DNA of 12,042 nt. Source: Paraspadella gotoi (taxonomy: Eukaryota > Animalia > Chaetognatha). The notes under the pieces were generated by a model, which was given only the letters and a program-made list of their open reading frames with translations, ran no database searches and was not told the origin of the DNA. This document shows positions 1 to 12,042 of the stretch, one piece after another. The first letter of the stretch is position 1. Each line of letters starts with the position of its first letter. Location: the NCBI GenBank assembly GCA_051294375.1, contig JBJCIZ010001014.1:1-12042 (forward strand). The letters run 5' to 3'. Position numbers and translations under genes: made by a program.

Positions 1-236
1 GAGAGAGAGTTGGGAGTGTATGGATGTTGGGAGGGGAAAAGGAGATCCGAAAGCCGATTAAAACTTTTTCAAAATCGAAGAATCGTTAAGAAAAATAATC
101 TTGAATTAGAAAGAGAGAGAGAGGAAAAAAAAAAATTCTTTTGCGGTCTGGTTTCCTTAACTTATTTCTTTAGGAAAGTGGAAAGGCGATGGTCGAAGAA
201 TTAAGGGGCCGGGGCGGAGGCTAGTACGGGGTGTGT

Positions 237-247
237 GGGGGGGGGAA
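237..247 (+). other. Polypurine-tract-like sequence GGGGGGGGGAA
   Basis: G9AA followed by TATTG/TGAATG resembles the G-rich PPT found immediately before a BEL/Pao LTR start. Confidence 0.45.
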
Positions 248-916
248 TATTGAATGGAAACGAAATCGCAAGTTTAATGCTGGCACTGTAAAGAGAGATT
301 CTTGTACGCGAGCTGCAATACTTGGCCGTCGTTATGTAAATTCACTGATCTTTGTTAGTTCGTTCGCCAACCATTTTTTAGAAAGGCTCAGTTCTGTTTA
401 AAAAAGACCGCCAGGATCGCCCCGTTAACGGAAGATATTAAGAATTTGTTCTACACTGCCCCTGAGGATTGCCTTTACTACGTAAGAAATAGAATCTGAA
501 CTTTTGAAGAATAATTTGTCTGGATATTATTCATTATGTTGTTAAAGGCCTTTTTTAACATCTTGTACATGCACTCACTACTCGCTACACTACATTCACA
601 CTATTCCGTTATCAAACATCGGGGCGTTCTTGGAGTTAGAATTTTGAGCTGAGGCGATCTGTATAACAGTCTTAAATATTAAAGACTTAAATGCCATCAA
701 CGGGAATAAAACTAATTTAATCTAAACTAACTCAACAAACAAAATATCTAATAAAAATAAAAATACGCTGAAGCAACCTGGAAATTGGGAGACTTTGGCT
801 CCCGAGGACTGGGCCTAAATCATAACATAACCTTGTTCGCGTTCTACATGTGAACCGACTGAGGAGTTTGGAGGAACGCGGGAGCCGCCGATAAGGGCCC
901 TGCCGGGTGTCAAACA
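248..916 (+). repeat. Putative LTR (only one copy seen)
   Basis: Non-coding stretch between the PPT-like tract and the gag leader. It starts TATTG (TG at 251), ends TCAAACA (916) followed by a T run, and contains AATAAA signals near 705 and 750-761. There is no second copy to confirm it, and the 3' end could instead be ~795. Confidence 0.4.
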
Positions 917-997
917 TTTTTTACTGCCATCAGGGCCGGGTCTATTGTGACCGGGCCATTAAGTCGGGCACACGGCCGAAGCAGAAGCCTACGTTAC

Positions 998-1004
998 GTA
1001 AGTT
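998..1004 (+). promoter_or_regulatory. Putative major 5' splice donor AC|GTAAGTT
   Basis: Perfect GTAAGT intron consensus starting 16 nt upstream of the AAAAATG at 1014, the position typical of a retroviral major splice donor. Confidence 0.55.
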
Positions 1005-1013
1005 ACAAAAAAA

Positions 1014-3920
1014 ATGCCATCATCGCACGGTGGCGACGATGGAACTTTGCCAATTTGAAAGGGTTTTTTAATAACACATTAAATCAAAATGAACGAGGTG
1101 TAAGAAGGTTCGTAAAAGAATTACAAAACGAACTAGACAAATTCGCAAAACTATATGACGATGCCAAAGTTCCGTTGGAGGTTCAGGCGGTTGAGCGGGT
1201 CGAATGGGCTCGCGAGACTGCCCGGACAATGCACATTGAATTGTCACGTTTTATCACTGTTAACCCTGCACTTGAAACCGATCGTGTTAAATCACTGTTA
1301 GATGATAATCTTGATTGTTCGGTACTGGGCATTTTGAGGGCACGTCCTATATTAGTTTTGGGAGCTGAGAACGCCGCGCAAGTTGACAAGATAGTTGAGG
1401 TTTCTGATGAGGAATTTGAGGAATCCGTCCGCACGGGCAGCGCGTCGTTCGTTTCCGCGTCCCCACAAAATCCTCCTCCTATTCTCAGCATCCATCGTCG
1501 AGATCATGAGAAGTCGCGCGTCGAGCCAAGGTCTGCGACGGGAATCTCCGTCAGATCGTCGCAAAAAAATAGAACCACGGTAACGTCATCTCAATTGTCT
1601 CGCGAGAAGATCCGCCAAGAGTTGGTAAATGAGCTGGTAAAGTGTTTGGAAGAGAGGATAGCGTTAGAGAGGCAGAAAGAGCAAATGGATGTAGAACGTG
1701 AAAAGGAGAGAGCGAAACGAGAGGGGAGAAACGAGGACGAGCTTGAAGCAAAATTAAAAGAAATTCGAAAGGGAACGAATGAAAGAATAATGAAGGCGGA
1801 GGAAAGGCATAGAGAATGGGTGATAGAATACAAACAAAAAAACAAGGAAAGAAAGGAGAGAGCAGAGANNNNNNNNNNAGGAAAGAGAGAAAGCAATAGA
1901 ATTCGAATTTCAACAAAAGGCTATTGAAAAGAAGGAAAAAGCGGTGAAAGAGAGATTATCCAGAATTAGTGGAGACAGCTCTGAAGAAGACCTGTATTCT
2001 TGTAGATCGGACGGCGGTCGTACAAAGGCGTCGCGTCGGAGCGTCGCGAGTCGCCGGAGCGGACGTCACGTTGAGGAACGCCCGATCGTCGAACGTCACG
2101 CCGAGGATCGCCCGATCGCAGAACGCCATGTCGAGGAGCGCCCGATCGCAGCTCCACGCGCCGAGGAATCTTCGCCGGAAACGACGGTGCCCAAATCGAT
2201 CATTACTACGGTGAGGGGAGGAAAGGAAAGGGAGGAAAGAAAAGAGGAGGAAGATATTCTGGTCAAACTCATGAGGGACTTACTCGAGGAGAAGAGGAGA
2301 AGCCGAGAATTGACAGAACCATTGTTGCCGCCGCCGGCCGGCCCGCGTTATTATCCGCCGCCGTGCGCGGCCTCCACCGCCGCCCGTTCCGTCCGCGCCG
2401 CCGCCGTTCCGTCCGTACCGCCGCCAAATCTGTCCGTAGTCGCCGCCGTTGCCGATCGCGCCGCCGCCCGCGCGGATAGTCCCGCCGCGCCGCCCGTCGT
2501 AATAACACGCGGGTGGTACCAAGTTATTCCGCCGCCGCGAGTTGTAACGCCGCAGATCCAATCGACACCGCCGTTAGTAACGCCACACACAATGCACACT
2601 GAGTCGTCCAAATCGTCCGTGCCGCTCGTAACGCCGCCATTGTTGTCGTCGCTTGAAGTTGATCGAGTTGTTGAAGTTTCGAAGTCGCCAGTCGAATGCG
2701 CAAATTGTTCATGTCGAAGTGAGTCGCGCTGGTCACCGCCGCCCGTTGTAGAACCGCTCGAGGACAAACTGGAAAGGAAAGAGTCGATTAATCATGGCAC
2801 CACACGAGAGGAAGCTCTCACACAATTATGCATATTACAAACACAACAACAGGCGCTGAGTCTTATCAGGCAAAAACGTCCCAAGTTAAAATTTTCCGGA
2901 AAGGATCGTCGAGTAGACTTTGAGTCGCAACTTAATTTGTTTGAGTCATTGAGTAAGGTCGTTGGTGTCACAGACGAAATGCTTATGTCAGAATTGAAGG
3001 AGTACTTCGACGGAGACGCGGGCATCATAGTATCACAACATGAAGCGTCGGGAAACCACACCAAAGCTTTGAAGGAAGTCAAATTGGCGTTAGAAATCGA
3101 ATTCGGTCGAAAGAATTTTACAGCGCAACAAATGTTAGAAGAGTTGTTAAAGGGACCAAAGATTTCTGAGAAAGATTTCGCCGGATCGAGGACTTTCATA
3201 TTAGAGATGGAAAAATTTTACAAGAGGGCTGTAGAGACAAATCGCGCCGCGACATTCTCCACACGAGAAACATACATCGAGATCATATCTAAGAAACTTC
3301 CGTTCTTGGCAAATCCGGTAGCGAAAAGAATGACGAAGCATGAGTTGTCGATACTAAAAAGTGAGAATAGGAAGAAGGGAGATCTTGAGTTAAAGTTCGA
3401 TGAGTTCTTGGAGATCGTGAAGGAAGTGACGAGATCAAAGGAAACCATGGGGATCTTGATGAAACAAGGGTCGTCGTCAATCGAAAGGTCAAACGGGGTG
3501 AATAACTCCAGCGCGAGGACTTACGGAGAAATCGTAAGAAATCATGTTTCAGTTCGTGCAGCCGCAGCAACTCGAGCGACGAAGGCGACAGTCGCCGCCA
3601 ATCGAAGCTTTTCCAATCCCAATTCCGATCCTACCAATCACGCACCCAGAGGCCCAAGGCAATCAAAATGTGACTTTTGTGAAAAAGTTCACTTCACGGG
3701 AATCTGTTCTAAGTTTCTAGAGTTGACGATTGACGAAAGGGTGGGCTGGATGAAAGAGAAAGGACTGTGTCGACTTTGTTTCGGACGAGGGCACCTGGCG
3801 AGGGACTGTTCCAATCTCATGGGTTGTCAGACGTGCGGACAAAGGCACCATGCATCCATTCACAGAGAGGAGTCGAATCAGGAACAGAGTTTCTTCTTGA
3901 CTAGCAGCAGCGTAACGTGA
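1014..3920 (+). CDS. gag: Gag portion of the polyprotein (joins track ORFs 947..1927 and 1944..3920)
   Basis: The E/K/R-rich coiled coil continues across the N gap at 1869-1878 (EREKAIEFEFQQKAIEKKEKAVKERL is open from 1881). A Pro-rich linker and C-terminal knuckles follow. The start at ATG 1014 is inferred and requires one missing base near 1043. Confidence 0.85.
1869..1878. other. Assembly gap (10 N)
   Basis: N run inside a purine-rich, low-complexity part of gag. The true gap length is unknown. Confidence 0.99.
2064..2168 (+). repeat. 30-nt coding tandem repeat, ~3.5 units
   Basis: Units at 2064, 2094, 2124 and 2154 (partial) encode RHVEERPIVE / RHAEDRPIAE / RHVEERPIAA / PRAEE. Confidence 0.9.
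3669..3863 (+). other. Triple zinc-knuckle nucleocapsid domain
   Basis: CDFCEKVHFTGIC (CX2CX3HX4C), CRLCFGRGHLARDC (CX2CX4HX4C) and CQTCGQRHHASIH, the arrangement typical of BEL/Pao Gag. Confidence 0.93.
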
Positions 3921-4822
3921 CGACAGGAGCATTTCGACCGATAGTTCCAGTCGTTGTGAAAAGCGGACATAGGTCGGTCGTTACGTACGCCTTATTAGAT
4001 AGCGGCGCTACCCGTTCAGCCATGTCAATGAAATTAGCGAGAAAATTAGATTTAGCTACGTACGCAGAATATACAAATTTAACAACTTATGACAAAGTGT
4101 CAAGAACATGGAGAGATTATGGTGACATCGAATTGACGAATATAGAAAACACGTTTTCAACGGAAATAAGAAAAGTCATGGTAGGAGAGATTTTAACGAC
4201 AGAGACAGACCGACCGACTCGAAACGAAGAAATCGAGGACTATCAGTACATGAAAGGAGTTGAGTTTATCGAATTGGAAGATGACTCGGTCGAAATGATA
4301 CTCGACGCGAGATTGGCACATACTTGGGTCGGAGGTGAGACGAGAAAAGGACCTGAAGGTTATCCTGTTGCGCTGAAGACAGTGTTCGGGTGGACATTAG
4401 TAGGAGCGAGTGAAAACGAAAGCGGAGAACACATTAGTTGCTGTTCAACGACACATGAGCATGAGAAATTGGAATATTTGATAGCGTCGATGTTTCGTCA
4501 CGATTTTTTGATGAGAGGAACTGAGAGATATCCATCTGAGGTGCAGCACCCGTCGGCTGAAGACAGTTATGCTTTAGAGCAACTGGAGAACGAGATTTAT
4601 TTCAACGAAAAGACCGGTCATTACGTAGCGCCGTCACCGTGGAAAAAGGGAAGGGAGAAGACTGCCGAGTTTCTTGAAACGATTAAGGACGATGTGGTGA
4701 AGAACGCGGAAAGCAGAGCGAGGAAATTGGCGAACAAGATGCGGAAAGATCCGTTGCTGAAGGAGGGGGTGTTCCGAACGATGGAGGAGACAATCGAATT
4801 GGGCCAGCGAGAAAGGCCGTAG
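3917..4822 (+). CDS. pol: Aspartic protease and pre-RT segment of the polyprotein
   Basis: YALLDSGATRS (DSG at 3998-4006), PVALKTVFGWTLVG and GHYVAPSPWK. The frame is open from 3905 and is shifted -1 relative to gag. Confidence 0.9.
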   Translation: MTTGAFRPIVPVVVKSGHRSVVTYALLDSGATRSAMSMKLARKLDLATYAEYTNLTTYDKVSRTWRDYGDIELTNIENTFSTEIRKVMVGEILTTETDRPTRNEEIEDYQYMKGVEFIELEDDSVEMILDARLAHTWVGGETRKGPEGYPVALKTVFGWTLVGASENESGEHISCCSTTHEHEKLEYLIASMFRHDFLMRGTERYPSEVQHPSAEDSYALEQLENEIYFNEKTGHYVAPSPWKKGREKTAEFLETIKDDVVKNAESRARKLANKMRKDPLLKEGVFRTMEETIELGQRERP

Positions 4823-7800
4823 TGGAGCATCCGCCGCCGGGTCAGCCGGAGTGTTTCGCGCCGTTGCTCGTCGTCACGAGAGCGGACAAGCCGGGCAAAT
4901 TCAGAATCTGTCAAGATGCAGCATCGAAAGTGAACGGGAATGCGCTGAACGATCACTTGATTGGAGGGCCGGACAACCTCACTCCGTTAATTGGCATGTT
5001 GCTGAAGTTCCGCAGAAAAAGATATACGATTTCCGCAGACATCAAGGGGTTCTTCCATCAAGTCGAGTTACATCCAAAAGACGTAGCAGCCTTCAGATAC
5101 CACTGGTATACAGACAAATCGATGCAGACATTGGAGGTTCACGAGCCGCTGGTACACGTGTTCGGGGGAGCGGGCAGTCCGGGGGTCGCGACGTTTGTGC
5201 TGCAGTATCACGGGAAGAAGCTGAGTTTCACTGGAGAATTTTCGCCGGAGGTGATCATCGCGTTTTTCCTTAAAGTTTACGTTGACGATTATCTCGATGC
5301 GCTGGACGGCATTAAAGAAGCAAGAAAGATGCGGTTAGACATGACGGAGGCGATGAAGAAAGGCGGGTTCGAGCTTACAAAGTGGCAAGCTTCACATCCA
5401 CGAATCTTGTTAGATGATCCAGAAGGAGACGAAGAAGAGAACGAAACGGTGAACGAAGCAGTTGACGGGGGGTTGGAGGAAGAACTGGAGGATAATCTCG
5501 AGGGTTTGGCCGGGAATGCAATGCCGGAGGATCCGTCGCTCGATGAACATGATTCTAAAGTTTTAGGAACGGGATACAACTCGAAACGTGATGTTTTCTT
5601 TGTACGAGTAACAGACAAAGCAGAGAAGGAGGCGAAGACGAGAAGAGATGTCTTGAAGTTGGTCGCATCGGTTTTCGATCCGCTGGGGTTGGTGGCGCCG
5701 TTCGTATTGAAAGGGAGAAGCATATTCCAAAAGATAGTGATGGAAGGGCTAGACTGGGACGACAAGCTGCCGGAAGAGTTGTTCGAGGCGTTCGACAAGT
5801 GGCGAAAGAAGATGTGTTTTCTAAAAAGAATTAGAATTCCACGGTGGACGAGCATCTTGGGCCTTGAATGTGTGAAGACATCGTTGATCGTGTTTTGCGA
5901 CGCAAGTTACGAAGGGTATGGAGTGGCCATCTACATAAAGAAGGAAAATAAAGACGGAGAAAAAAGTCACGTGACGCTACTCTTTGCCAAAGCTCACGTA
6001 GTACCAGTAAAGATGCAAGAAAAAATTATAGTGGAGAATCAACTGGATCATGGAGACTCGATGCCAAGGCTGGAACTAAACGCGGCAAGATTGGCGGCGC
6101 AGACTCGAGACACCATGATAAGGGAAGCGGGTGAAGAATTTGATGAGATTCATATGATGACGGATTCAATCACAGTGATTCGATGGATCAAAGACTGGAA
6201 AAAACGTTTCAAAACGTATGAGAATTTTCGATTGAAAACTATCAGACTCCTCTCGAAACCAAGTGAATGGAAATATGTGCCATCCCAAGAAAACCCAGCC
6301 GATTTGACAAGCCGTGGGGTAGATGCTGATGATGCTGAAAGTTGGAAAAAGTTTCACAGAGGACCTGAATGGCTTCGCCAAAAAGAGAAAGACTGGCCGA
6401 CTACGAACGATTTAGACAGTATGAAGAAAAAGAAAGATGTAAATGTAAATATCAGCGCAATTCACGACGATAGTGAATTTAGTCCGATGGAACTTATTTT
6501 TGCTAATTCTACAAGAGAGTATCCGAAAAAAGATGATGAACATGAAAAAGAGGACTGGGTGCTGAAAGTAACTGAAAAAATAAGTGACTGGGTGAAAAAA
6601 GTGAAAAGAATAGTTTACTTTGTGAAAGCAGTGAAAGGATTGATTGAAAACAAAATTCGAAAGAAGAAAGGTGAAGCAATAGAGAGAAAAGAAATGAGAA
6701 TGACAGGAGACGAATACAAGAGAGCAGAGTTGAAACTAATCAAAGCGATCCAAAGAAAAAAATTCGAAAAAGAAATATTCGAATTAATAAAGTTGGGAGT
6801 CATGACGCCAAATTCGCACAGAGAATTGAGAAGTAGAAATTCAAGAATTGTCGCTATGAGTCCGTTCATTGACGAGGAGGGTTTGATGAGGACTGGAGGG
6901 AGGTTAGGGAACTCGAAAGGGTTATCATATGACGCTAAACATCCCATAATATTACCAAAAGATGACGAGAATATCGATTCACTGATTCGCCATGAACATA
7001 TCACATTATTCCACTCCGGTACATGCGCAACATTCCATTCATTAAGACAAAGATTTACCTTGTTGGGAGGAAGGCCAGCAGTGGAAAAGATCGTCCGCCG
7101 GTGTTTGAAATGCCAGAGAAACTTAAAGGTTCCAACGCCGCAAAAGATGGCTGAACATCCAGAATTCAGAGTAAACGAAGCAATTCCATTTGAAATAACC
7201 GGACTTGATTGTTTTGGTCCGTATCAGGTGAAACACGCCGGACGTGGGCTGAATAAAAAGAATGTAGTAATATTTACATGTCTAACTACACGAGCAGTAG
7301 CTTTCGAAATATTGAAGGATATGACATCGCAGTCAATGCTCAGCGCACTAATCAGATTTAAAAACGTTTACCCAGGTGTACGCTCATTCATCTCGGACAA
7401 CGGCACGAATCTCGTAGGAGCGAGCAACGAGATAGAGAAGCAACTACATCAACTCCAAAGCAACGAGAAAATTCATGAAGAAATCGCCGCCAAAGGAATC
7501 ACCTGGACATTTGGACCGCCAAACGCTCCACATTGGGGAGGAGCTTGGGAAAGGTTGATTCGTGAGACAAAAAAGCACATCAACGCCGTCATTCCGTCAG
7601 AGTTAGACGTCGACACATTCGCAACGATCCTAAGTGAAATATCAGGTATCATGAATCGACGCCCATTGACATTCGAATCTTCCGATCCAAAGAGTGATAT
7701 TGCATTATCACCAGCAAATTTCTTATATCCATATTTGTTTACATCGACATCACTAACCTTATTACCATACGCAGCGGCGGAAGGGGATTGCATGAGGGCG

Positions 7801-8094
7801 GCGTGGAAGCAAGTGAGGGAGGTAGCGGACTCTTTCTGGAGACGTTGGCACTCAGAGTACTTAATCTCGTTACAGGAGAGAACGAAATGGCGAAACACGG
7901 CCGAAAACTTGAAGGAAGGACAAGCAGTTCTACTCGTCGAGCCGAACGCCCCGCGGGATCAATGGAAGACGGGCAGAGTCGTCGAAGTCAAAGGAGACGG
8001 CACGATCAAGAGAGAAGCCGTCGTCCGCCTCGCCGACGGAAGAACTTTTCGACGTCACCACAACGCGCTGGTTCAACTCGAACTGGATCAGTAA
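4822..8094 (+). CDS. pol: Reverse transcriptase - RNase H - integrase segment
   Basis: RT YVDD at 5278-5289. RNaseH motifs FCDAS (D 5899), PRLEL, TDS and NPAD. Integrase HHCC at 6997-7113 and D-D-E at 7207/7396/7549, followed by the C-terminal WKTGRVVEV...VVRL domain. No internal stops in 1090 codons. Confidence 0.97.
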   Translation: MEHPPPGQPECFAPLLVVTRADKPGKFRICQDAASKVNGNALNDHLIGGPDNLTPLIGMLLKFRRKRYTISADIKGFFHQVELHPKDVAAFRYHWYTDKSMQTLEVHEPLVHVFGGAGSPGVATFVLQYHGKKLSFTGEFSPEVIIAFFLKVYVDDYLDALDGIKEARKMRLDMTEAMKKGGFELTKWQASHPRILLDDPEGDEEENETVNEAVDGGLEEELEDNLEGLAGNAMPEDPSLDEHDSKVLGTGYNSKRDVFFVRVTDKAEKEAKTRRDVLKLVASVFDPLGLVAPFVLKGRSIFQKIVMEGLDWDDKLPEELFEAFDKWRKKMCFLKRIRIPRWTSILGLECVKTSLIVFCDASYEGYGVAIYIKKENKDGEKSHVTLLFAKAHVVPVKMQEKIIVENQLDHGDSMPRLELNAARLAAQTRDTMIREAGEEFDEIHMMTDSITVIRWIKDWKKRFKTYENFRLKTIRLLSKPSEWKYVPSQENPADLTSRGVDADDAESWKKFHRGPEWLRQKEKDWPTTNDLDSMKKKKDVNVNISAIHDDSEFSPMELIFANSTREYPKKDDEHEKEDWVLKVTEKISDWVKKVKRIVYFVKAVKGLIENKIRKKKGEAIERKEMRMTGDEYKRAELKLIKAIQRKKFEKEIFELIKLGVMTPNSHRELRSRNSRIVAMSPFIDEEGLMRTGGRLGNSKGLSYDAKHPIILPKDDENIDSLIRHEHITLFHSGTCATFHSLRQRFTLLGGRPAVEKIVRRCLKCQRNLKVPTPQKMAEHPEFRVNEAIPFEITGLDCFGPYQVKHAGRGLNKKNVVIFTCLTTRAVAFEILKDMTSQSMLSALIRFKNVYPGVRSFISDNGTNLVGASNEIEKQLHQLQSNEKIHEEIAAKGITWTFGPPNAPHWGGAWERLIRETKKHINAVIPSELDVDTFATILSEISGIMNRRPLTFESSDPKSDIALSPANFLYPYLFTSTSLTLLPYAAAEGDCMRAAWKQVREVADSFWRRWHSEYLISLQERTKWRNTAENLKEGQAVLLVEPNAPRDQWKTGRVVEVKGDGTIKREAVVRLADGRTFRRHHNALVQLELDQ

Positions 8095-8271
8095 AAACAA
8101 TTTGAAAAGAAAACTTTAAATTCATGGAACAATGAAAAAACTCGGTAAAGTGAATTTGTAAAGGCAAATTGTAAACAATCATCGTAGTCAAGCAAAAAAA
8201 TAGTCAGTTAAAATTTACAAAATATCGTGATCGATCATATCGTGAATTTAGAAAGAAGCCAGCTCTCAAAA

Positions 8272-8850
8272 ATGAACATCGAACAATTCGTCAAGTCTTG
8301 TTTTCAAAAACAACTGAGAACGTCGATCGATAGATTGGTGGAAAATTTATGGGAGGAAGTAGAAGCAATTCAAAGTTGGAGCTACCCACCAGCTACAGAA
8401 ATATCGTTAATATTGGAAACAGTGAGATCAAGAAAAAGGCAGATAGCCGAATTGGCGAAAGAACTTAAGGGAATATACGTTCCACCACCCGCCAAGGAGG
8501 ACGACGAAGATACGATTTACCATAAAGTGTTCCGCATTCCAGAGGAAGAACTCGACGAAGAATCAAAAAAAATTCTAGAAATGAAAAGAAAGAGAAGGAA
8601 CGAAGTGACGGCTAAACAAAAGAAAGTTACGTTCGCCGACGACGACACCACGGTGAAGAGCGAAATCAATGACGAGACGAGACCAAAGGAGATTGACGAG
8701 GTCAACACGGTGATCAAGACGAATGACGTAATCACCCAAGAAAAAAAGGAACCAGATGAAGCAAAAGCCGTCGGCGAAGAAGAAAAGCCCAAGAGACGAG
8801 CACCGCCAAGATGTCATTTTTACTATCGAAAATTATTCATTAAAAAATAA
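8272..8850 (+). CDS. Accessory ORF A, 192 aa, unknown function, charged, with KRKRR and KKVTFAD motifs
   Basis: First ATG (AAAAATG context) of track ORF 8227..8850. It is a long open frame between AT-rich spacers. Only weak acceptor candidates precede it (AATTTAG 8245-8251, CCAG ending 8262). Confidence 0.75.
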   Translation: MNIEQFVKSCFQKQLRTSIDRLVENLWEEVEAIQSWSYPPATEISLILETVRSRKRQIAELAKELKGIYVPPPAKEDDEDTIYHKVFRIPEEELDEESKKILEMKRKRRNEVTAKQKKVTFADDDTTVKSEINDETRPKEIDEVNTVIKTNDVITQEKKEPDEAKAVGEEEKPKRRAPPRCHFYYRKLFIKK

Positions 8851-8958
8851 AGTCATAAAGACTTCAAACTCGTAAACGTCGAACTGTTATAGCCGGAGAG
8901 AAACTTATTGAATAGTGAATTGGTCGAATTTTTATTATTTGAATTGTTTTCAGTTGCC

Positions 8959-9330
8959 ATGGATACTCCAAACGCCTTCGTTGACGAATGGAACAAAATT
9001 GAAAAATCTTGGGATGATCTCGAGAAAGAAGAACAAAGCGAAAAAAGGAGAAGGAAAATATTCGAACTGATATTACAGGAAAAAGAATTAAAGCAAAAGG
9101 AAAAAGAAGCTGAGCAATTGACAGAAGAAAAAGCCGATCCGAACAAAGCAGTTCTCCAATTAAAGCAAGAACTTGCCGATCTGAACCTGAGAAAAAACTT
9201 GATCGCTACAAAAAAATTATCAAACCCGGAAAAAATCACAACGTTCACAATGATGGAGAAGAGAACTGAGAAGAGACTCGAGATAATCTCTGGAAAATTG
9301 TCGACGTTAGAACCGAAAGAAACTGAATGA
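8959..9330 (+). CDS. Accessory ORF B, 123 aa, coiled-coil-like, paralogue of ORF C
   Basis: ATG lies 5 nt after TTTTCAG (8947-8953). Aligns by eye with ORF C. Confidence 0.75.
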   Translation: MDTPNAFVDEWNKIEKSWDDLEKEEQSEKRRRKIFELILQEKELKQKEKEAEQLTEEKADPNKAVLQLKQELADLNLRKNLIATKKLSNPEKITTFTMMEKRTEKRLEIISGKLSTLEPKETE

Positions 9331-9421
9331 AAAAAAAGAAAACTATTTGTGATAGTTAATAAAAGAACTGATAATTCATTATTGAATTTGTTTAAAGTTT
9401 AAGTTATAGTTTCAGTTCCTA

Positions 9422-9838
9422 ATGGATCTGGCAACCGGTTTCAAAAACAAACGAAGCAAATTAAATGAACAATGGAAAAAAGGAGAAAAACTTTGGGCAA
9501 ATGGAGACTACCAAGAATCAATTAATGTGGTAGAAAAACTCATACTTCCAGAGGTTGAACTTCAAGAAGAGGAAAAAAGGCAAAAAGAAACCGACCAAGA
9601 AAACAAAGAACCTGAAGCCGCATTAGAAAGGTGCAAAAAAATGAAAGAAAACTTAAAAAAGAGAAAAGAAGAGGGAACCTACCTATACGAGTTAGAAAAA
9701 AACTTTGCAGTGTCAAAAATTTATACCGAAATCTTGACAAGAACGGAAACGGAAGAAAAAGAGATCGACAAAAAGATCACAAATCTCGAGAGAAAAATTA
9801 GAATGACGTCATTACGAAAAAGAGTCTCAAAAAATTAA
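9422..9838 (+). CDS. Accessory ORF C, 138 aa, coiled-coil-like, paralogue of ORF B
   Basis: ATG lies 6 nt after TTTCAG (9410-9415). Aligns by eye with ORF B. Confidence 0.78.
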   Translation: MDLATGFKNKRSKLNEQWKKGEKLWANGDYQESINVVEKLILPEVELQEEEKRQKETDQENKEPEAALERCKKMKENLKKRKEEGTYLYELEKNFAVSKIYTEILTRTETEEKEIDKKITNLERKIRMTSLRKRVSKN

Positions 9839-9909
9839 CATTAAAAAATGAAATGATTATATCGAATAAATTTTTTCTCAGAAAGGTAGCTGAATTCCGG
9901 AAAGAAAGA

Positions 9910-10185
9910 ATGAACTGGTGCTTGAGCACAGATTGCAGACCCCAATCGGTGGAAGATGCAATGAGAAAATTAATTTCTTACGAAAATTATTATCTGGAAA
10001 AACGAGAGAACGAAAAAGACGGAATAAAAATACAAAAACTGGAAGCTGAATTCAAAGAGCAAAAGAATTACTTTGAGAGATGGATCGAAGTTCGCTACCA
10101 GCAAAATAATGTGTTCTCAAACTTTCAGAAAGAAATGAGAGCTCATATTAAAGGAAGAAAACACCAAAACAGAACAGACAATTAA
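9910..10185 (+). CDS. Accessory ORF D, ~91 aa (start uncertain), paralogue of ORF E
   Basis: An acceptor-like TTTTTTCTCAG at 9871-9881 lies within track ORF 9853..10185, and the next ATG is at 9910. Aligns with ORF E. Confidence 0.65.
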   Translation: MNWCLSTDCRPQSVEDAMRKLISYENYYLEKRENEKDGIKIQKLEAEFKEQKNYFERWIEVRYQQNNVFSNFQKEMRAHIKGRKHQNRTDN

Positions 10186-10233
10186 TCGAAATTTACATAT
10201 AATGTTTTGTTTATTTAAGATATTTCAGTAACC

Positions 10234-10500
10234 ATGTCATTCGAACTTACTAAAAATTTTCGCGAACGAGAAAAAGCCAAAGCCGCAGCAGAAACGCCAA
10301 GCAACCTTGAGGACACGCTGGAGAAGCTGGAGATGAATGAGAAGGAATTCGAGTCATTGTATTTCGATTATATAGCGCTAGGCTGTCCGATGGTAAAGGT
10401 GTCAGAAACATATATCTGGAGAATCGCTTACCTGAAAAGATGGGCCGACTTAATGGAAGCTGAGGGAAAAGTCTTCGCCGAAGATATTCAACCACACTAA
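10234..10500 (+). CDS. Accessory ORF E, 88 aa, paralogue of ORF D
   Basis: ATG (ACCATG) lies 5 nt after ATTTCAG (10222-10228). Aligns with ORF D. Confidence 0.72.
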   Translation: MSFELTKNFREREKAKAAAETPSNLEDTLEKLEMNEKEFESLYFDYIALGCPMVKVSETYIWRIAYLKRWADLMEAEGKVFAEDIQPH

Positions 10501-10599
10501 AAAACTGATCGAGATGTGTCGACGATCCAAAATTACTTATACATTCGTTATTCTTTGCATTCTTGCTTTCTTCGTTTACATTTAGTATATTCAGTCAGA

Positions 10600-10845
10600 A
10601 TGGACATTTCACAGCTAGCGGAAAAGCAGAGAGATCACTTGGCAAGTCGTAAAAGCGTCTCCTGGTTCGGCATCCTTCCCTTCGGATCTTGCTTAGCGCA
10701 AGATCTGTCGACCATCACAACGTCTGTTCGCACGCCGACCGCCGGCTACCCGCTTCCGCCGGCTGCCTTTTATTCCAGGCTCTCTCGAACATATGGCGTC
10801 GCACCCACTGACTACTGTTTCCCGTTGTGCTGCGAACAAAACTAA
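10600..10845 (+). CDS. Possible accessory ORF F, 81 aa (may be the start of a longer frameshifted ORF)
   Basis: ATG lies 5 nt after ATTCAG (10589-10594), which follows a T-rich spacer. Composition changes to higher GC at this point. Confidence 0.4.
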   Translation: MDISQLAEKQRDHLASRKSVSWFGILPFGSCLAQDLSTITTSVRTPTAGYPLPPAAFYSRLSRTYGVAPTDYCFPLCCEQN

Positions 10846-11113
10846 GTCTCGAAACCATCGGTTCGTGCCGCAAGCACTTAGAGCCCAACAAATTTTATGG
10901 GCCACTCAGAGAAGACTCGATATTGAAGAGTCCACTCCGGGTGACTGGACAGCGGACAATGTCGGATTAATTTCTTGTTGGAGCGCGGTCAGAAGCGAGG
11001 GAGGCGCAATGTCTCCCCACGAGAACGGAACACTCTGCTATCCGCGAGCGCCGTGCTGCAGGCGCACGTTGCAAAATCTCTCTCTACAAACGGAGATCTA
11101 TGAAGTCGGCTAA
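10793..11113 (+). CDS. Possible ORF G, 106 aa, or a frameshifted continuation of ORF F
   Basis: Overlaps ORF F in another frame. TTTTATTCCAG (10768-10778) lies 14 nt before its ATG. No recognisable domain. Confidence 0.25.
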   Translation: MASHPLTTVSRCAANKTKSRNHRFVPQALRAQQILWATQRRLDIEESTPGDWTADNVGLISCWSAVRSEGGAMSPHENGTLCYPRAPCCRRTLQNLSLQTEIYEVG

Positions 11114-12042
11114 CGAGATGTCTCCGTGAGCGCACTTCTCAGAAGCGCTTACAATCGTCAGGCGGCTTATCAGGCATCGCAATCATGCTGAGCAAATGGA
11201 AAATCTCATCCGATATAACAATGTGCCTAGCTCCTGCCAGTCGGCGCGATATGGCAGCTCCCACAAGTGAACGCTCTTCACATTGATCCAGCAGTGCGTA
11301 GTATCTGCGAGTACGATTCCCATTACTATGTGGACCGATTAAGATTGAATTGATGTATACAGCTATTTTTCAGAAACAATGTTATTGTTAATCGAACTAA
11401 ATTCCTGTAAATGAATACTAAAGCAGAACATTAAATAATTTTTGAATTCGCTGAATGTTTGAACAATTAGGTGATATACTCGTAGGCATACAATAGACAG
11501 TGATAGCATATCATTGTGAAATCGGATTTTAACCCAATGTAAGTCTTTACTCTGCGCAGCATGAACCTTCCCTCACTTGCTGCCTGCCAGCATCTTCGTT
11601 CTCTGGATCGCGGTTGCTCGTTTATTCAGGAGAAGCTCTTTCTCCCGCCGGGCTGGAACCACCTTATGTAATTAGTATATTAAGTTTTAAAGTTTAGGCT
11701 ATTACAATTTTTATTTAACGTTAGAGTTAACGCTTCGAGTTACAAGTCAGACTTAAATTACTCTGATTAATTTCCGTATCGCACGTAATTTTCAGTACGT
11801 CTGTTTGTGTTTTTTAATTTTTTTATCGCCTCGTAGCATTTCTTCACAAGAATTTTCATATTTTAAGGGACGGGATTTCTGTTTTAATCTACTGATCGAT
11901 TTTTGACGTTTCGTAACTTGTCGTTGCATGGATGGACTATTTGGGACGATCTTCGATCCTACTCGAATTCCGTAACGGGCACTTCTTTTACCGGCAAATA
12001 GTGCCGGAATGCGGACGCCGAACTATCACACGCGCGCTGAAG

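What the first reader, a model, noticed from the sequence alone, without database searches (positions are those of the whole stretch)
8095..11414. Cassette of 5-7 small non-env accessory genes directly downstream of BEL/Pao integrase
Seen: ORF A starts 177 nt after the pol stop and is followed by a head-to-tail + strand array (192, 123, 138, ~91, 88 and 81 aa) with AT-rich spacers of only ~50-110 nt. No LTR intervenes, and I see no signal peptide or transmembrane segment in ORFs A-E. Known: BEL/Pao elements usually have one gag-pol ORF, and a few (nematode Cer7/Cer13, Tas) add a single env-like region. Inference: this is a 'complex' LTR retrotransposon carrying virus-like accessory proteins, possibly for host-defence suppression or RNA export. 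I do not recognise this architecture from described BEL/Pao families.
Basis: partly seen in the sequence, partly recalled or inferred. Interest (0 to 1): 0.9.

Follow-up and report, generated by a model that had tools for sequence, protein, structure and literature searches.

The report
Retrotransposon with spliced accessory gene array
A BEL/Pao-type jumping gene is followed, right after its integrase gene, by five small intact reading frames of no known family, each behind a splice-acceptor-like sequence; they likely belong to the element and would each be read from their own spliced message, a strategy known from complex retroviruses but not described for this group.

Summary
The array is real. 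Five intact ORFs (A-E, 88-192 aa) tile 78% of 8095-10626; none of 4,000 simulated sequences gave more than three. New here: every ORF start lies behind a T-rich 3' splice-acceptor-like site, mostly TTCAG 5-6 nt before the ATG (4 of 6 starts vs 4 of 180 other ATGs). A GTAAGT donor lies 16 nt before the gag ATG and stays GTRAGT in variant copies. B and C are paralogues. The proteins are charged and helical, lack membrane segments, and had no homologue in any search. ORF F onwards is variable; the 81-aa figure is unreliable. Contigs from 4 runs (3 studies) hold A-E at 99% or more, but none listed bridges pol and array, and no 3' LTR follows in the window. The pol sits in an unnamed 32-member clade with gag and pol separate; 0 of 24 distant BEL/Pao loci with long 3' DNA have such an array. 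Best reading (0.45): element-borne accessory genes expressed by alternative splicing from the leader donor. Rivals: spliced-leader trans-spliced operon inside the element (0.25); host operon beside a broken element (0.2). Expression and protein function are untested.

The parts
237..247 (+). Polypurine run (PPT-like) directly before the LTR, i.e. the layout expected at a 3' LTR
   Evidence: Sequence. Suggests a tandem or circularly permuted assembly; inference.
248..916 (+). Putative LTR (starts TATTGA, ends TCAAACA)
   Evidence: Sequence; contigs laid at 342 are deeper than pol contigs in 4 of 4 runs (74, 251, 1100, 3780). A second copy is not in the window.
998..1003 (+). 5' splice-donor consensus GTAAGT in the non-coding leader, 16 nt before the gag ATG at 1014
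   Evidence: One of 3 GTRAGT on the + strand; 840 of 20,000 leader shuffles and 2 of 38 control gag starts have one. Contigs laid here in 4 of 4 runs read GTGAGT, and a more diverged contig end in X7 and X3 also has GTRAGT at this place. Use as a donor is inferred.
1014..3920 (+). gag, with Cys-His knuckles at 3669 and 3768; frame broken near 1050 and at the N gap (1869-1878)
   Evidence: one homologue P0211, 34% identical, E 5e-47.
3905..8094 (+). pol in a frame separate from gag: protease (DSG), RT (YVDD 5278), RNase H (DAS 5899), integrase; frame broken near 4805
   Evidence: Pfam Peptidase_A17 E 2.8e-35, DUF5641 1.1e-21, Integrase_H2C2 2.6e-8, RVT_1 9.3e-5 (below its cut-off).
8272..8850 (+). 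ORF A, 192 aa; helical N-terminal half, disordered tail, KRKRR patch; weak acceptor TTTAG ending 8251, 20 nt before the ATG
   Evidence: 0 hits among 1.84 billion representatives.
8959..9330 (+). ORF B, 123 aa, charged (44% K/R/D/E); acceptor TTTTCAG ending 8953, 5 nt before the ATG; paralogue of C
9422..9838 (+). ORF C, 138 aa; acceptor TTTCAG ending 9415, 6 nt before the ATG; 30% identical to B
   Evidence: Score 102; 0 of 2,000 full and 7 of 2,000 window shuffles reach it; no homologue.
9910..10185 (+). ORF D, 91 aa from the first ATG after the acceptor TTCTCAG ending 9881 (110 aa from 9853)
   Evidence: weak likeness to E (13 and 26 of 2,000 shuffles; not significant over 21 pairs).
10234..10500 (+). 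ORF E, 88 aa, predicted four helices; acceptor TTTCAG ending 10228, 5 nt before the ATG
   Evidence: Atlas recognition 2676, best hit 0.88, a lead only.
10600..10845 (+). ORF F start (acceptor TTCAG ending 10594, 5 nt before the ATG); body after about 10626-10669 differs in other copies
10670..11418 (.). GC-richer segment apparently specific to this copy; holds the 106-aa frame at 10793 and a seventh acceptor (TTTTCAG ending 11373) before an 11-codon frame
   Evidence: Joint across it in X7 (side 24 nt, letters between not known); composition.

Best explanation
A BEL/Pao-type pol is followed by five intact small ORFs, each behind a splice-acceptor-like site, which likely are accessory genes of the element, likely made by joining one donor in the 5' leader to alternative acceptors so that each ORF would get its own message. 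Shown: the ORFs, the acceptor-like sites 5-28 nt before each first ATG, the donor consensus at 998 before the gag ATG, and B/C paralogy. Inferred: transcription starts in the LTR; unspliced RNA serves gag, pol and packaging; the leader ending at 997 is joined to acceptor A, B, C, D, E or F; the array grew by tandem duplication of an acceptor-plus-ORF unit; the 3' LTR follows further down and is the same sequence as 248-916, collapsed in assembly. The proteins are likely soluble helical regulators with basic patches. The most likely job for at least one (about 0.3) is Rev/CERV-like export or protection of the unspliced RNA, which an RNA with one donor and six acceptors would need; anti-silencing is the next guess.
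For: ORF tiling beyond all 4,000 simulations and pol-like codon periodicity in A-E. TTCAG within 8 nt of 4 of 6 first ATGs vs 4 of 180 other ATGs, Fisher p 2e-5; 0 of 20,000 spacer shuffles reached 3 of 6; a looser pattern within 30 nt fits 7 of 7 starts vs 16 of 179. 6 of 7 TTTCAG on the + strand lie after 8900. No GTRAGT lies in the spacers, so they are not ordinary introns joining the ORFs. The donor consensus is kept as GTRAGT in variant copies while neighbours change. The A-rich strand skew of pol continues through E. A sister pol family stays collinear 103 nt past the pol stop, and table 5 lists no joint from there back to the LTR. Array contigs have depths close to those of near-identical pol contigs in 4 of 4 runs (27/45, 25/26, 367/258, 5/3; depth is a rough guide only). 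A PPT precedes the LTR, and 8 control contigs likewise run pol then next gag, so permuted assemblies are common. Relative P0002 lies on contigs of 10,640-10,703 nt in 5 cluster rows, leaving about 2.7-3.3 kb beyond assumed gag, pol and LTR (indirect). Precedent for a donor near gag spliced to a 3' acceptor: Oikopleura Tor3a env (PMC4402516) and C. elegans Cer1 (PMC3315495), passages read.
Against: No 3' LTR within 3,948 nt after the pol stop. None of the 32 listed pieces (of 907) bridges pol and ORF A. The 91-94% sister pol family is about 3-12 times deeper than the array and its continuation past 8197 was not seen, so most pol copies may lack a similar array. The acceptor motif was chosen after looking at the data. 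The donor is only a 1-in-24 event by shuffling. The strongest acceptor (B) comes second, which would hinder use of C-F by plain cis competition; uniform 5-6 nt spacing fits trans-splicing at least as well. This copy's gag and pol are broken. No homologue or fold supports any function.
Confidence: 0.45

Rival explanations
1. The array belongs to the element but is an operon: the polycistronic RNA is resolved by host spliced-leader trans-splicing at each acceptor.
For: Acceptors sit 5-6 nt before four ATGs; spacers are 48-108 nt and T-rich with no donors; AATAAA or ATTAAA lies at or after the ends of A, B and C (8846, 9358, 9840/9865). TTTCAG as the nematode-type acceptor and about 100-nt intercistronic spacing are recalled, from no call. 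Cer1's spliced mRNA occurs with and without SL1 (PMC3315495, passages).
Against: A conserved donor in the leader offers a cis partner; no polyA hexamer in the spacers after D or E; the hexamers are common in this A-rich DNA (22 in the window); internal 3' cleavage would cost full-length RNA; the host is not known to trans-splice.
Confidence: 0.25
2. The array is a host operon or fast-evolving host gene cluster lying next to, or captured once by, a 3'-truncated and broken element; or the contig is chimeric.
For: Low depth and 99% or more identity in 4 samples of 3 studies would fit one fixed locus; A-E are intact while gag and pol are broken; no bridging contig listed; no 3' LTR; sister pol family not followed past 8197.
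Against: No introns in five ORFs; strand skew and codon pattern continue from pol; no junction feature between pol and A, and sister copies run on past the stop; the leader donor is retained across variants; clade relatives leave similar unexplained length. Intact A-E (1.9 kb) against a few breaks in 7 kb is not by itself significant.
Confidence: 0.2
3. The ORFs are element genes expressed without splicing, from internal promoters or by reinitiation; the T-rich spacers are promoter or initiator motifs.
For: Tor3b/4b env is driven by an internal promoter (PMC4402516, passages).
Against: Each spacer ends in a pyrimidine-rich stretch and AG just before the ATG; six promoters within 48-108-nt spacers is unlikely.
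Confidence: 0.06
4. The ORFs are non-functional by-products of T-poor, A-rich sequence.
For: Low-complexity charged proteins, no homologues.
Against: Local-composition simulations never gave more than 3 ORFs; frame-specific codon periodicity; acceptor placement; B/C paralogy with frame kept.
Confidence: 0.04

Closest known systems
Belpaoviridae (BEL/Pao; Semotivirus), ICTV profile PMC8742986 (whole text read)
   Same: Gag with Cys-His knuckles, pol order PR-RT-RH-IN, Pao Pfam domains, YVDD, LTR of 669 nt, PPT; two ORFs allowed.
   Different: [quoted passage not shown] PBS not recognised.
Env-bearing BEL/Pao: Tas, Cer7 (PMC554778, passages), Atlas virus (PMC9094657, listing and abstract start only)
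   Same: Extra coding capacity 3' of integrase.
   Different: One large glycoprotein there; five small soluble ORFs without membrane segments here.
C. elegans Cer1 and CERV (Ty3/gypsy; PMC10309623 and PMC3315495, passages and abstract start)
   Same: LTR retrotransposon with a spliced message, sometimes SL1-capped, for a non-env accessory protein needed to export unspliced RNA.
   Different: Gypsy; one 517-aa protein sharing exons with gag. No sequence likeness was tested or found.
Oikopleura Tor3a (Ty3/gypsy; PMC4402516, passages)
   Same: Donor near the start of gag spliced to an acceptor 3' of pol.
   Different: A single env; non-canonical GA donor; gypsy.
Complex retroviruses (HIV-type one major donor, many acceptors; scheme recalled, accessory-gene list in PMC7264820 passages)
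   Same: Leader donor before the gag ATG, several acceptors each before a small ORF.
   Different: No env, BEL-type RT, non-overlapping single-exon ORFs in tandem, partly duplicated.
Additional 3' ORFs of plant Retand/Grande and bdelloid Vesta/Juno/TelKA (PMC11963269 abstract; PMC7264820, PMC5408684 passages)
   Same: Long pol-to-3'LTR regions with extra ORFs of unknown or enzymatic function.
   Different: Gypsy-group elements; typically one ORF, antisense in Retand; no acceptor-tagged array in the passages seen.

Membership tests
Belpaoviridae (BEL/Pao) | Pol with protease, RT, RNase H, integrase in that order, of Pao type | tested here: met
   Pfam Peptidase_A17, DUF5641, Integrase_H2C2; motifs DSG, YVDD, DAS, integrase D-D-E with 50 residues between the last two by my count; 102 of 105 homologues list PF05380.
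Belpaoviridae (BEL/Pao) | Gag with Cys-His knuckles, in one ORF with pol or in a second ORF | tested here: met
   Knuckles at 3669 and 3768; gag ends at 3920, pol in another frame; 0 of 29 long clade pol proteins carry the gag knuckle.
Belpaoviridae (BEL/Pao) | Two flanking LTRs of 0.2-1.2 kb | tested here: inconclusive
   One LTR-like segment (248-916) with raised depth; no second copy in the window.
Belpaoviridae (BEL/Pao) | PPT of about 10 nt before the 3' LTR | tested here: inconclusive
   11 purines at 237-247 precede the only LTR; fits if the assembly is permuted or tandem.
Belpaoviridae (BEL/Pao) | 18-nt PBS matching host tRNA-Arg or tRNA-Gly | not testable with these tools
   A T run and no TGG follow the LTR end; no host genome or tRNAs held.
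Belpaoviridae (BEL/Pao) | Described range: one to three genes, 4.2-10 kb | tested here: not met
   Seven or more ORFs and 12 kb if the array is internal. So I file only the pol as BEL/Pao-type and the element as a variant outside the described range, not as a member of any described species.
Env-bearing BEL/Pao (Tas, Cer7, Atlas) | Large glycoprotein ORF with membrane anchor after integrase | tested here: not met
   Largest ORF 192 aa; hydropathy at most 0.85; no Pfam hit.
Retroviridae (complex retroviruses) | env gene and retroviral-type RT | tested here: not met
   No env; Pao-type pol. Works-like comparison only.
Complex-retrovirus-type expression scheme | Spliced mRNAs joining the leader donor to several acceptors | not testable with these tools
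   Consensus signals present; transcripts not examined.
Spliced-leader operon | Short spacers ending in an unpaired 3' acceptor just before the ATG | tested here: met
Spliced-leader operon | Spliced leader on the mature messages | not testable with these tools
   Only assembled contigs were served.
CERV/Rev-like export proteins | Sequence or fold likeness; export activity | tested here: inconclusive
   Single-sequence models of A and E are of low confidence (pTM 0.30, 0.42) and gave no match at E 0.001 or better.

The most novel reading that the evidence does not exclude
An undescribed clade of BEL/Pao elements has built a eukaryote-style operon of duplicated accessory genes inside its genome and lets the host's spliced-leader machinery cut one LTR-driven RNA into five or more single-gene messages: a retroelement with a trans-spliced operon.
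Probability: 0.22. Interest if true: 0.87.

Novelty: new variant of a known kind. Interest (0 to 1): 0.66.

Why it matters
Accessory-gene sets reached by multiple splice choices are regarded as a mark of complex retroviruses; LTR retrotransposons with extra 3' genes mostly carry one. ICTV describes BEL/Pao as having one to three genes and poorly understood replication. A BEL/Pao element with five or more acceptor-tagged genes would show an independent origin of complex-retrovirus-style expression without env, growth of accessory genes by duplicating an acceptor-plus-ORF unit, and five new small proteins as candidates for RNA export or anti-silencing. The exact donor and acceptor coordinates make the cis versus trans question testable with one 5' RACE or long-read RNA run.

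Tried and rejected
No whole genome is held, so copy number, flanks and a 3' LTR could not be looked up. Sequencing runs: no RNA holder listed (X7 is only guessed to be RNA and showed no joint from 997 to any acceptor); this is no evidence on expression. 10855-11256 has no cover in 4 of 4 runs; cover alone proves nothing. A detailed comparison of copies over the array was not obtained, so dN/dS and the sister family's 3' continuation stay open. A joint 5963 to 8577 in X3 and X5 (table 5c) would link pol to ORF A; I did not count it because the A/G-rich landing site resembles pol near 6685. Homologues of the array: exact look-up 0 of 10 sequences; A 0 hits by HMMER over 1.84 billion and no Atlas hit; C 0 of 46 candidates; E Atlas best 0.88; Pfam only weak hits, E 0.017 or worse; PHROGs and NCBIfam 0 of 7; tblastn against 80 loci one hit at E 0.029. 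B and D were not put through a large database search. Folds: E no match in PDB or viral libraries, best VIA Z 5.2; A only generic helical hairpins; B, C, D not folded. Loci of the close clade: viral contigs none; the JGI scan covered 16 of 64 parts and returned only distant elements; GTDB 4 distant loci. No tRNA or Rfam match. A-B, A-C and D-E paralogy not significant. Spacers as ordinary introns: rejected, no donors and each ORF ends in a stop. Env or fusogen: rejected for A-E, no hydrophobic segment. Literature: ten searches listed no BEL/Pao element with such an array; the library lacks most subscription papers, including Bowen and McDonald 1999 on Cer elements (recalled, not read), and I read no supplements or Repbase/GyDB entries, which may hold such elements.
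Full report
Observation. The pol frame stops at 8094. Six + strand ORFs follow head to tail: A 8272-8850 (192 aa), B 8959-9330 (123), C 9422-9838 (138), D 9910-10185 (91; 110 from 9853), E 10234-10500 (88), F 10600-10845 (81). Five ORFs of 80 aa or more cover 78% of 8095-10626; none of 2,000 global or 2,000 local Markov simulations reached five. A-E score better in their own frame under pol codon frequencies; F and the 106-aa frame at 10793 hardly do. A-E are 34-45% charged and their highest 19-residue hydropathy is 0.85. Nothing like 248-916 recurs after 8000.

The element. Pfam gives Peptidase_A17, DUF5641 and Integrase_H2C2; DSG, YVDD, DAS and two gag knuckles are in place. The 105 homologues found are nearly all Pao-type. 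An integrase tree of 141 rows (the window, 76 of 105 proteins, 64 of 80 loci; short or stop-containing rows left out) puts the window in a clade of 32 with support 1.0, all unnamed ENA/Logan proteins and none of the loci. In that clade 0 of 29 long pol proteins carry the gag knuckle, against 38 of 49 outside it, so gag and pol are separate ORFs. This copy is broken in frame near 1050, at the N gap and near 4805. An 11-purine tract (237-247) precedes the LTR-like segment 248-916, which is the layout of a 3' LTR; contigs at 342 are deeper than pol contigs in 4 of 4 runs. Eight control contigs run pol, then a new gag 576-2,115 nt later, so permuted or tandem assemblies are common, and the missing 3' LTR may be the one at 248. 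This is inference. The host is not identified; BEL/Pao elements are known from animals (PMC8742986).

Each ORF start lies behind a pyrimidine-rich stretch ending in AG: TTTAG 20 nt before A, TTTTCAG 5 nt before B, TTTCAG 6 nt before C, TTCTCAG 28 nt before D, TTTCAG 5 nt before E, TTCAG 5 nt before F, and TTTTCAG 5 nt before an 11-codon frame at 11379; in each case the ATG is the first after the AG. TTCAG within 8 nt marks 4 of 6 first ATGs and 4 of 180 other ATGs (p 2e-5); 8 of 20,000 spacer shuffles reached two and none three. The motif was picked after inspection. The spacers hold no GTRAGT, but the 97-nt leader between LTR and gag ATG holds GTAAGT at 998, one of three on the strand; 840 of 20,000 shuffles and 2 of 38 control gag starts have one. 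All contigs laid there in 4 of 4 runs read GTGAGT with changes in neighbouring letters, and a more diverged contig end in two runs also has GTRAGT at this place. B and C are paralogues: 30% identity, 0 of 2,000 full and 7 of 2,000 window shuffles; D/E likeness is not significant over 21 pairs.

Other copies. Nine of 11 listed runs hold part of 7400-11800, all one organism label, 3 studies. Four were laid. Contigs cover A-E at 99% or more in all four (for example 1 difference in 1,343 nt in X1; 10 and 2 gaps in 1,318 nt in X7). Their depths resemble those of near-identical pol contigs. A sister pol family, 91-94% alike and about 3-12 times deeper, is laid to 8197 in X3, 103 nt past the stop, with no listed joint back to the LTR; what follows was not seen. 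None of the 32 listed pieces of 907 bridges pol and ORF A. X1 and X3 contigs leave the window at 10621-10626, and an X7 contig joins 10669 to 11419, so F's body and the frame at 10793 are not core. Depth here is a rough guide, not a copy number.

Controls and relatives. Of 83 distant BEL/Pao loci with the pol end, 39 have 600 nt or more downstream; in 12 of these a repeat of upstream sequence starts 1-629 nt after the stop. None of the 24 with 1.5 kb or more shows an acceptor-tagged array, judged from the ORF lists. DNA around the close clade could not be fetched. Indirectly, P0002 sits on contigs of 10,640-10,703 nt in 5 of 8 cluster rows, leaving 2.7-3.3 kb beyond pol, an assumed gag of 799-970 aa and a 670-nt LTR; the longest contigs of P0003, P0004 and P0007 leave 2.5-4.5 kb, but their shorter ones leave little. 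Flanking DNA could explain this too.

Proteins. No family, homologue or fold was found. Single-sequence models of A and E are helical and of low confidence. A, B, C and D carry basic patches (KRKRR, KRRRK, RKRVSK, KGRKH).

Mechanism. Most likely (0.45) the LTR drives one RNA; unspliced it serves gag, pol and packaging; spliced from the leader donor to one of six acceptors it gives single-gene messages. The array likely grew by duplicating an acceptor-plus-ORF unit. Such an RNA would need help to leave the nucleus unspliced, the job CERV does for Cer1 (PMC10309623, abstract start and passages), so a Rev/CERV-like role for at least one protein is my lead guess (about 0.3), with no direct support. 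The same acceptors would serve spliced-leader trans-splicing (0.25), which better explains the uniform 5-6 nt spacing and a strong acceptor in second place; Cer1's spliced message occurs with and without SL1 (PMC3315495, passages). A host operon beside a broken element, or a chimeric contig, is not excluded (0.2).

Comparison and novelty. ICTV gives Belpaoviridae one to three genes and 4.2-10 kb (PMC8742986, whole text); de la Chaux and Wagner mention only env as an extra gene in the passages seen (PMC3118150). Extra 3' ORFs are known in gypsy-group elements of plants, rotifers, tunicates and nematodes (PMC11963269 abstract; PMC7264820, PMC5408684, PMC4402516, PMC13524379 passages), mostly one per element. 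Ten literature searches listed no BEL/Pao with an array of this kind, within the limits of the library. The earlier scan finding e1-7361384 (a chromovirus with one long extra gene, unchecked) only adds that single extra genes recur. Verdict: the array and its splice-type signals are real; linkage to the element is likely but unproven; expression route and function are untested. New variant of a known kind, interest 0.66.

Noticed in passing
P0001-P0031: The pol falls in a clade of 32 (FastTree support 1.0, long stem) made only of unnamed ENA/Logan proteins, 33-44% identical, whose pol is separate from gag. It looks like an undescribed BEL/Pao lineage.
   Followed up: partly
P0141, cluster of P0005: A fragment of this clade's pol is annotated as a hypothetical protein of a SAR324 bacterial MAG; likely eukaryotic contamination, and a hint that some hosts are marine.
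   Followed up: no
window 1-247: Purine-rich stretch and PPT before the LTR; laid by contigs of other runs (X3 joint 51 to 162). Probably the element's own 3' untranslated end.
   Followed up: partly
window 9247-10050: Extra depth in X3 and X5 but not X1 or X7, and contig breaks at 9470-9487 and 9883-9912: part of C/D may be shared with a deeper repeat or sister array.
   Followed up: no
window 917-935: No TGG-starting primer-binding site after the LTR; a T run follows instead.
   Followed up: partly
window 848-853: ATG-TGA start-stop in the LTR, the only ATG between 700 and the donor; it would lie in the shared leader if transcription starts upstream.
   Followed up: no
window 11789-11795 and 11932-12042: A further TTTTCAG with no ATG near it, and a 37-codon frame running off the window's end.
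   Followed up: no
window 2063-2167: Three tandem 30-nt repeats and a Pro/Ala-rich stretch in gag.
   Followed up: no
L081-L084: BEL/Pao elements inside four prokaryotic MAGs, one on a 1.4-Mb contig with a 705-nt repeat pair 99% alike; likely contamination.
   Followed up: no
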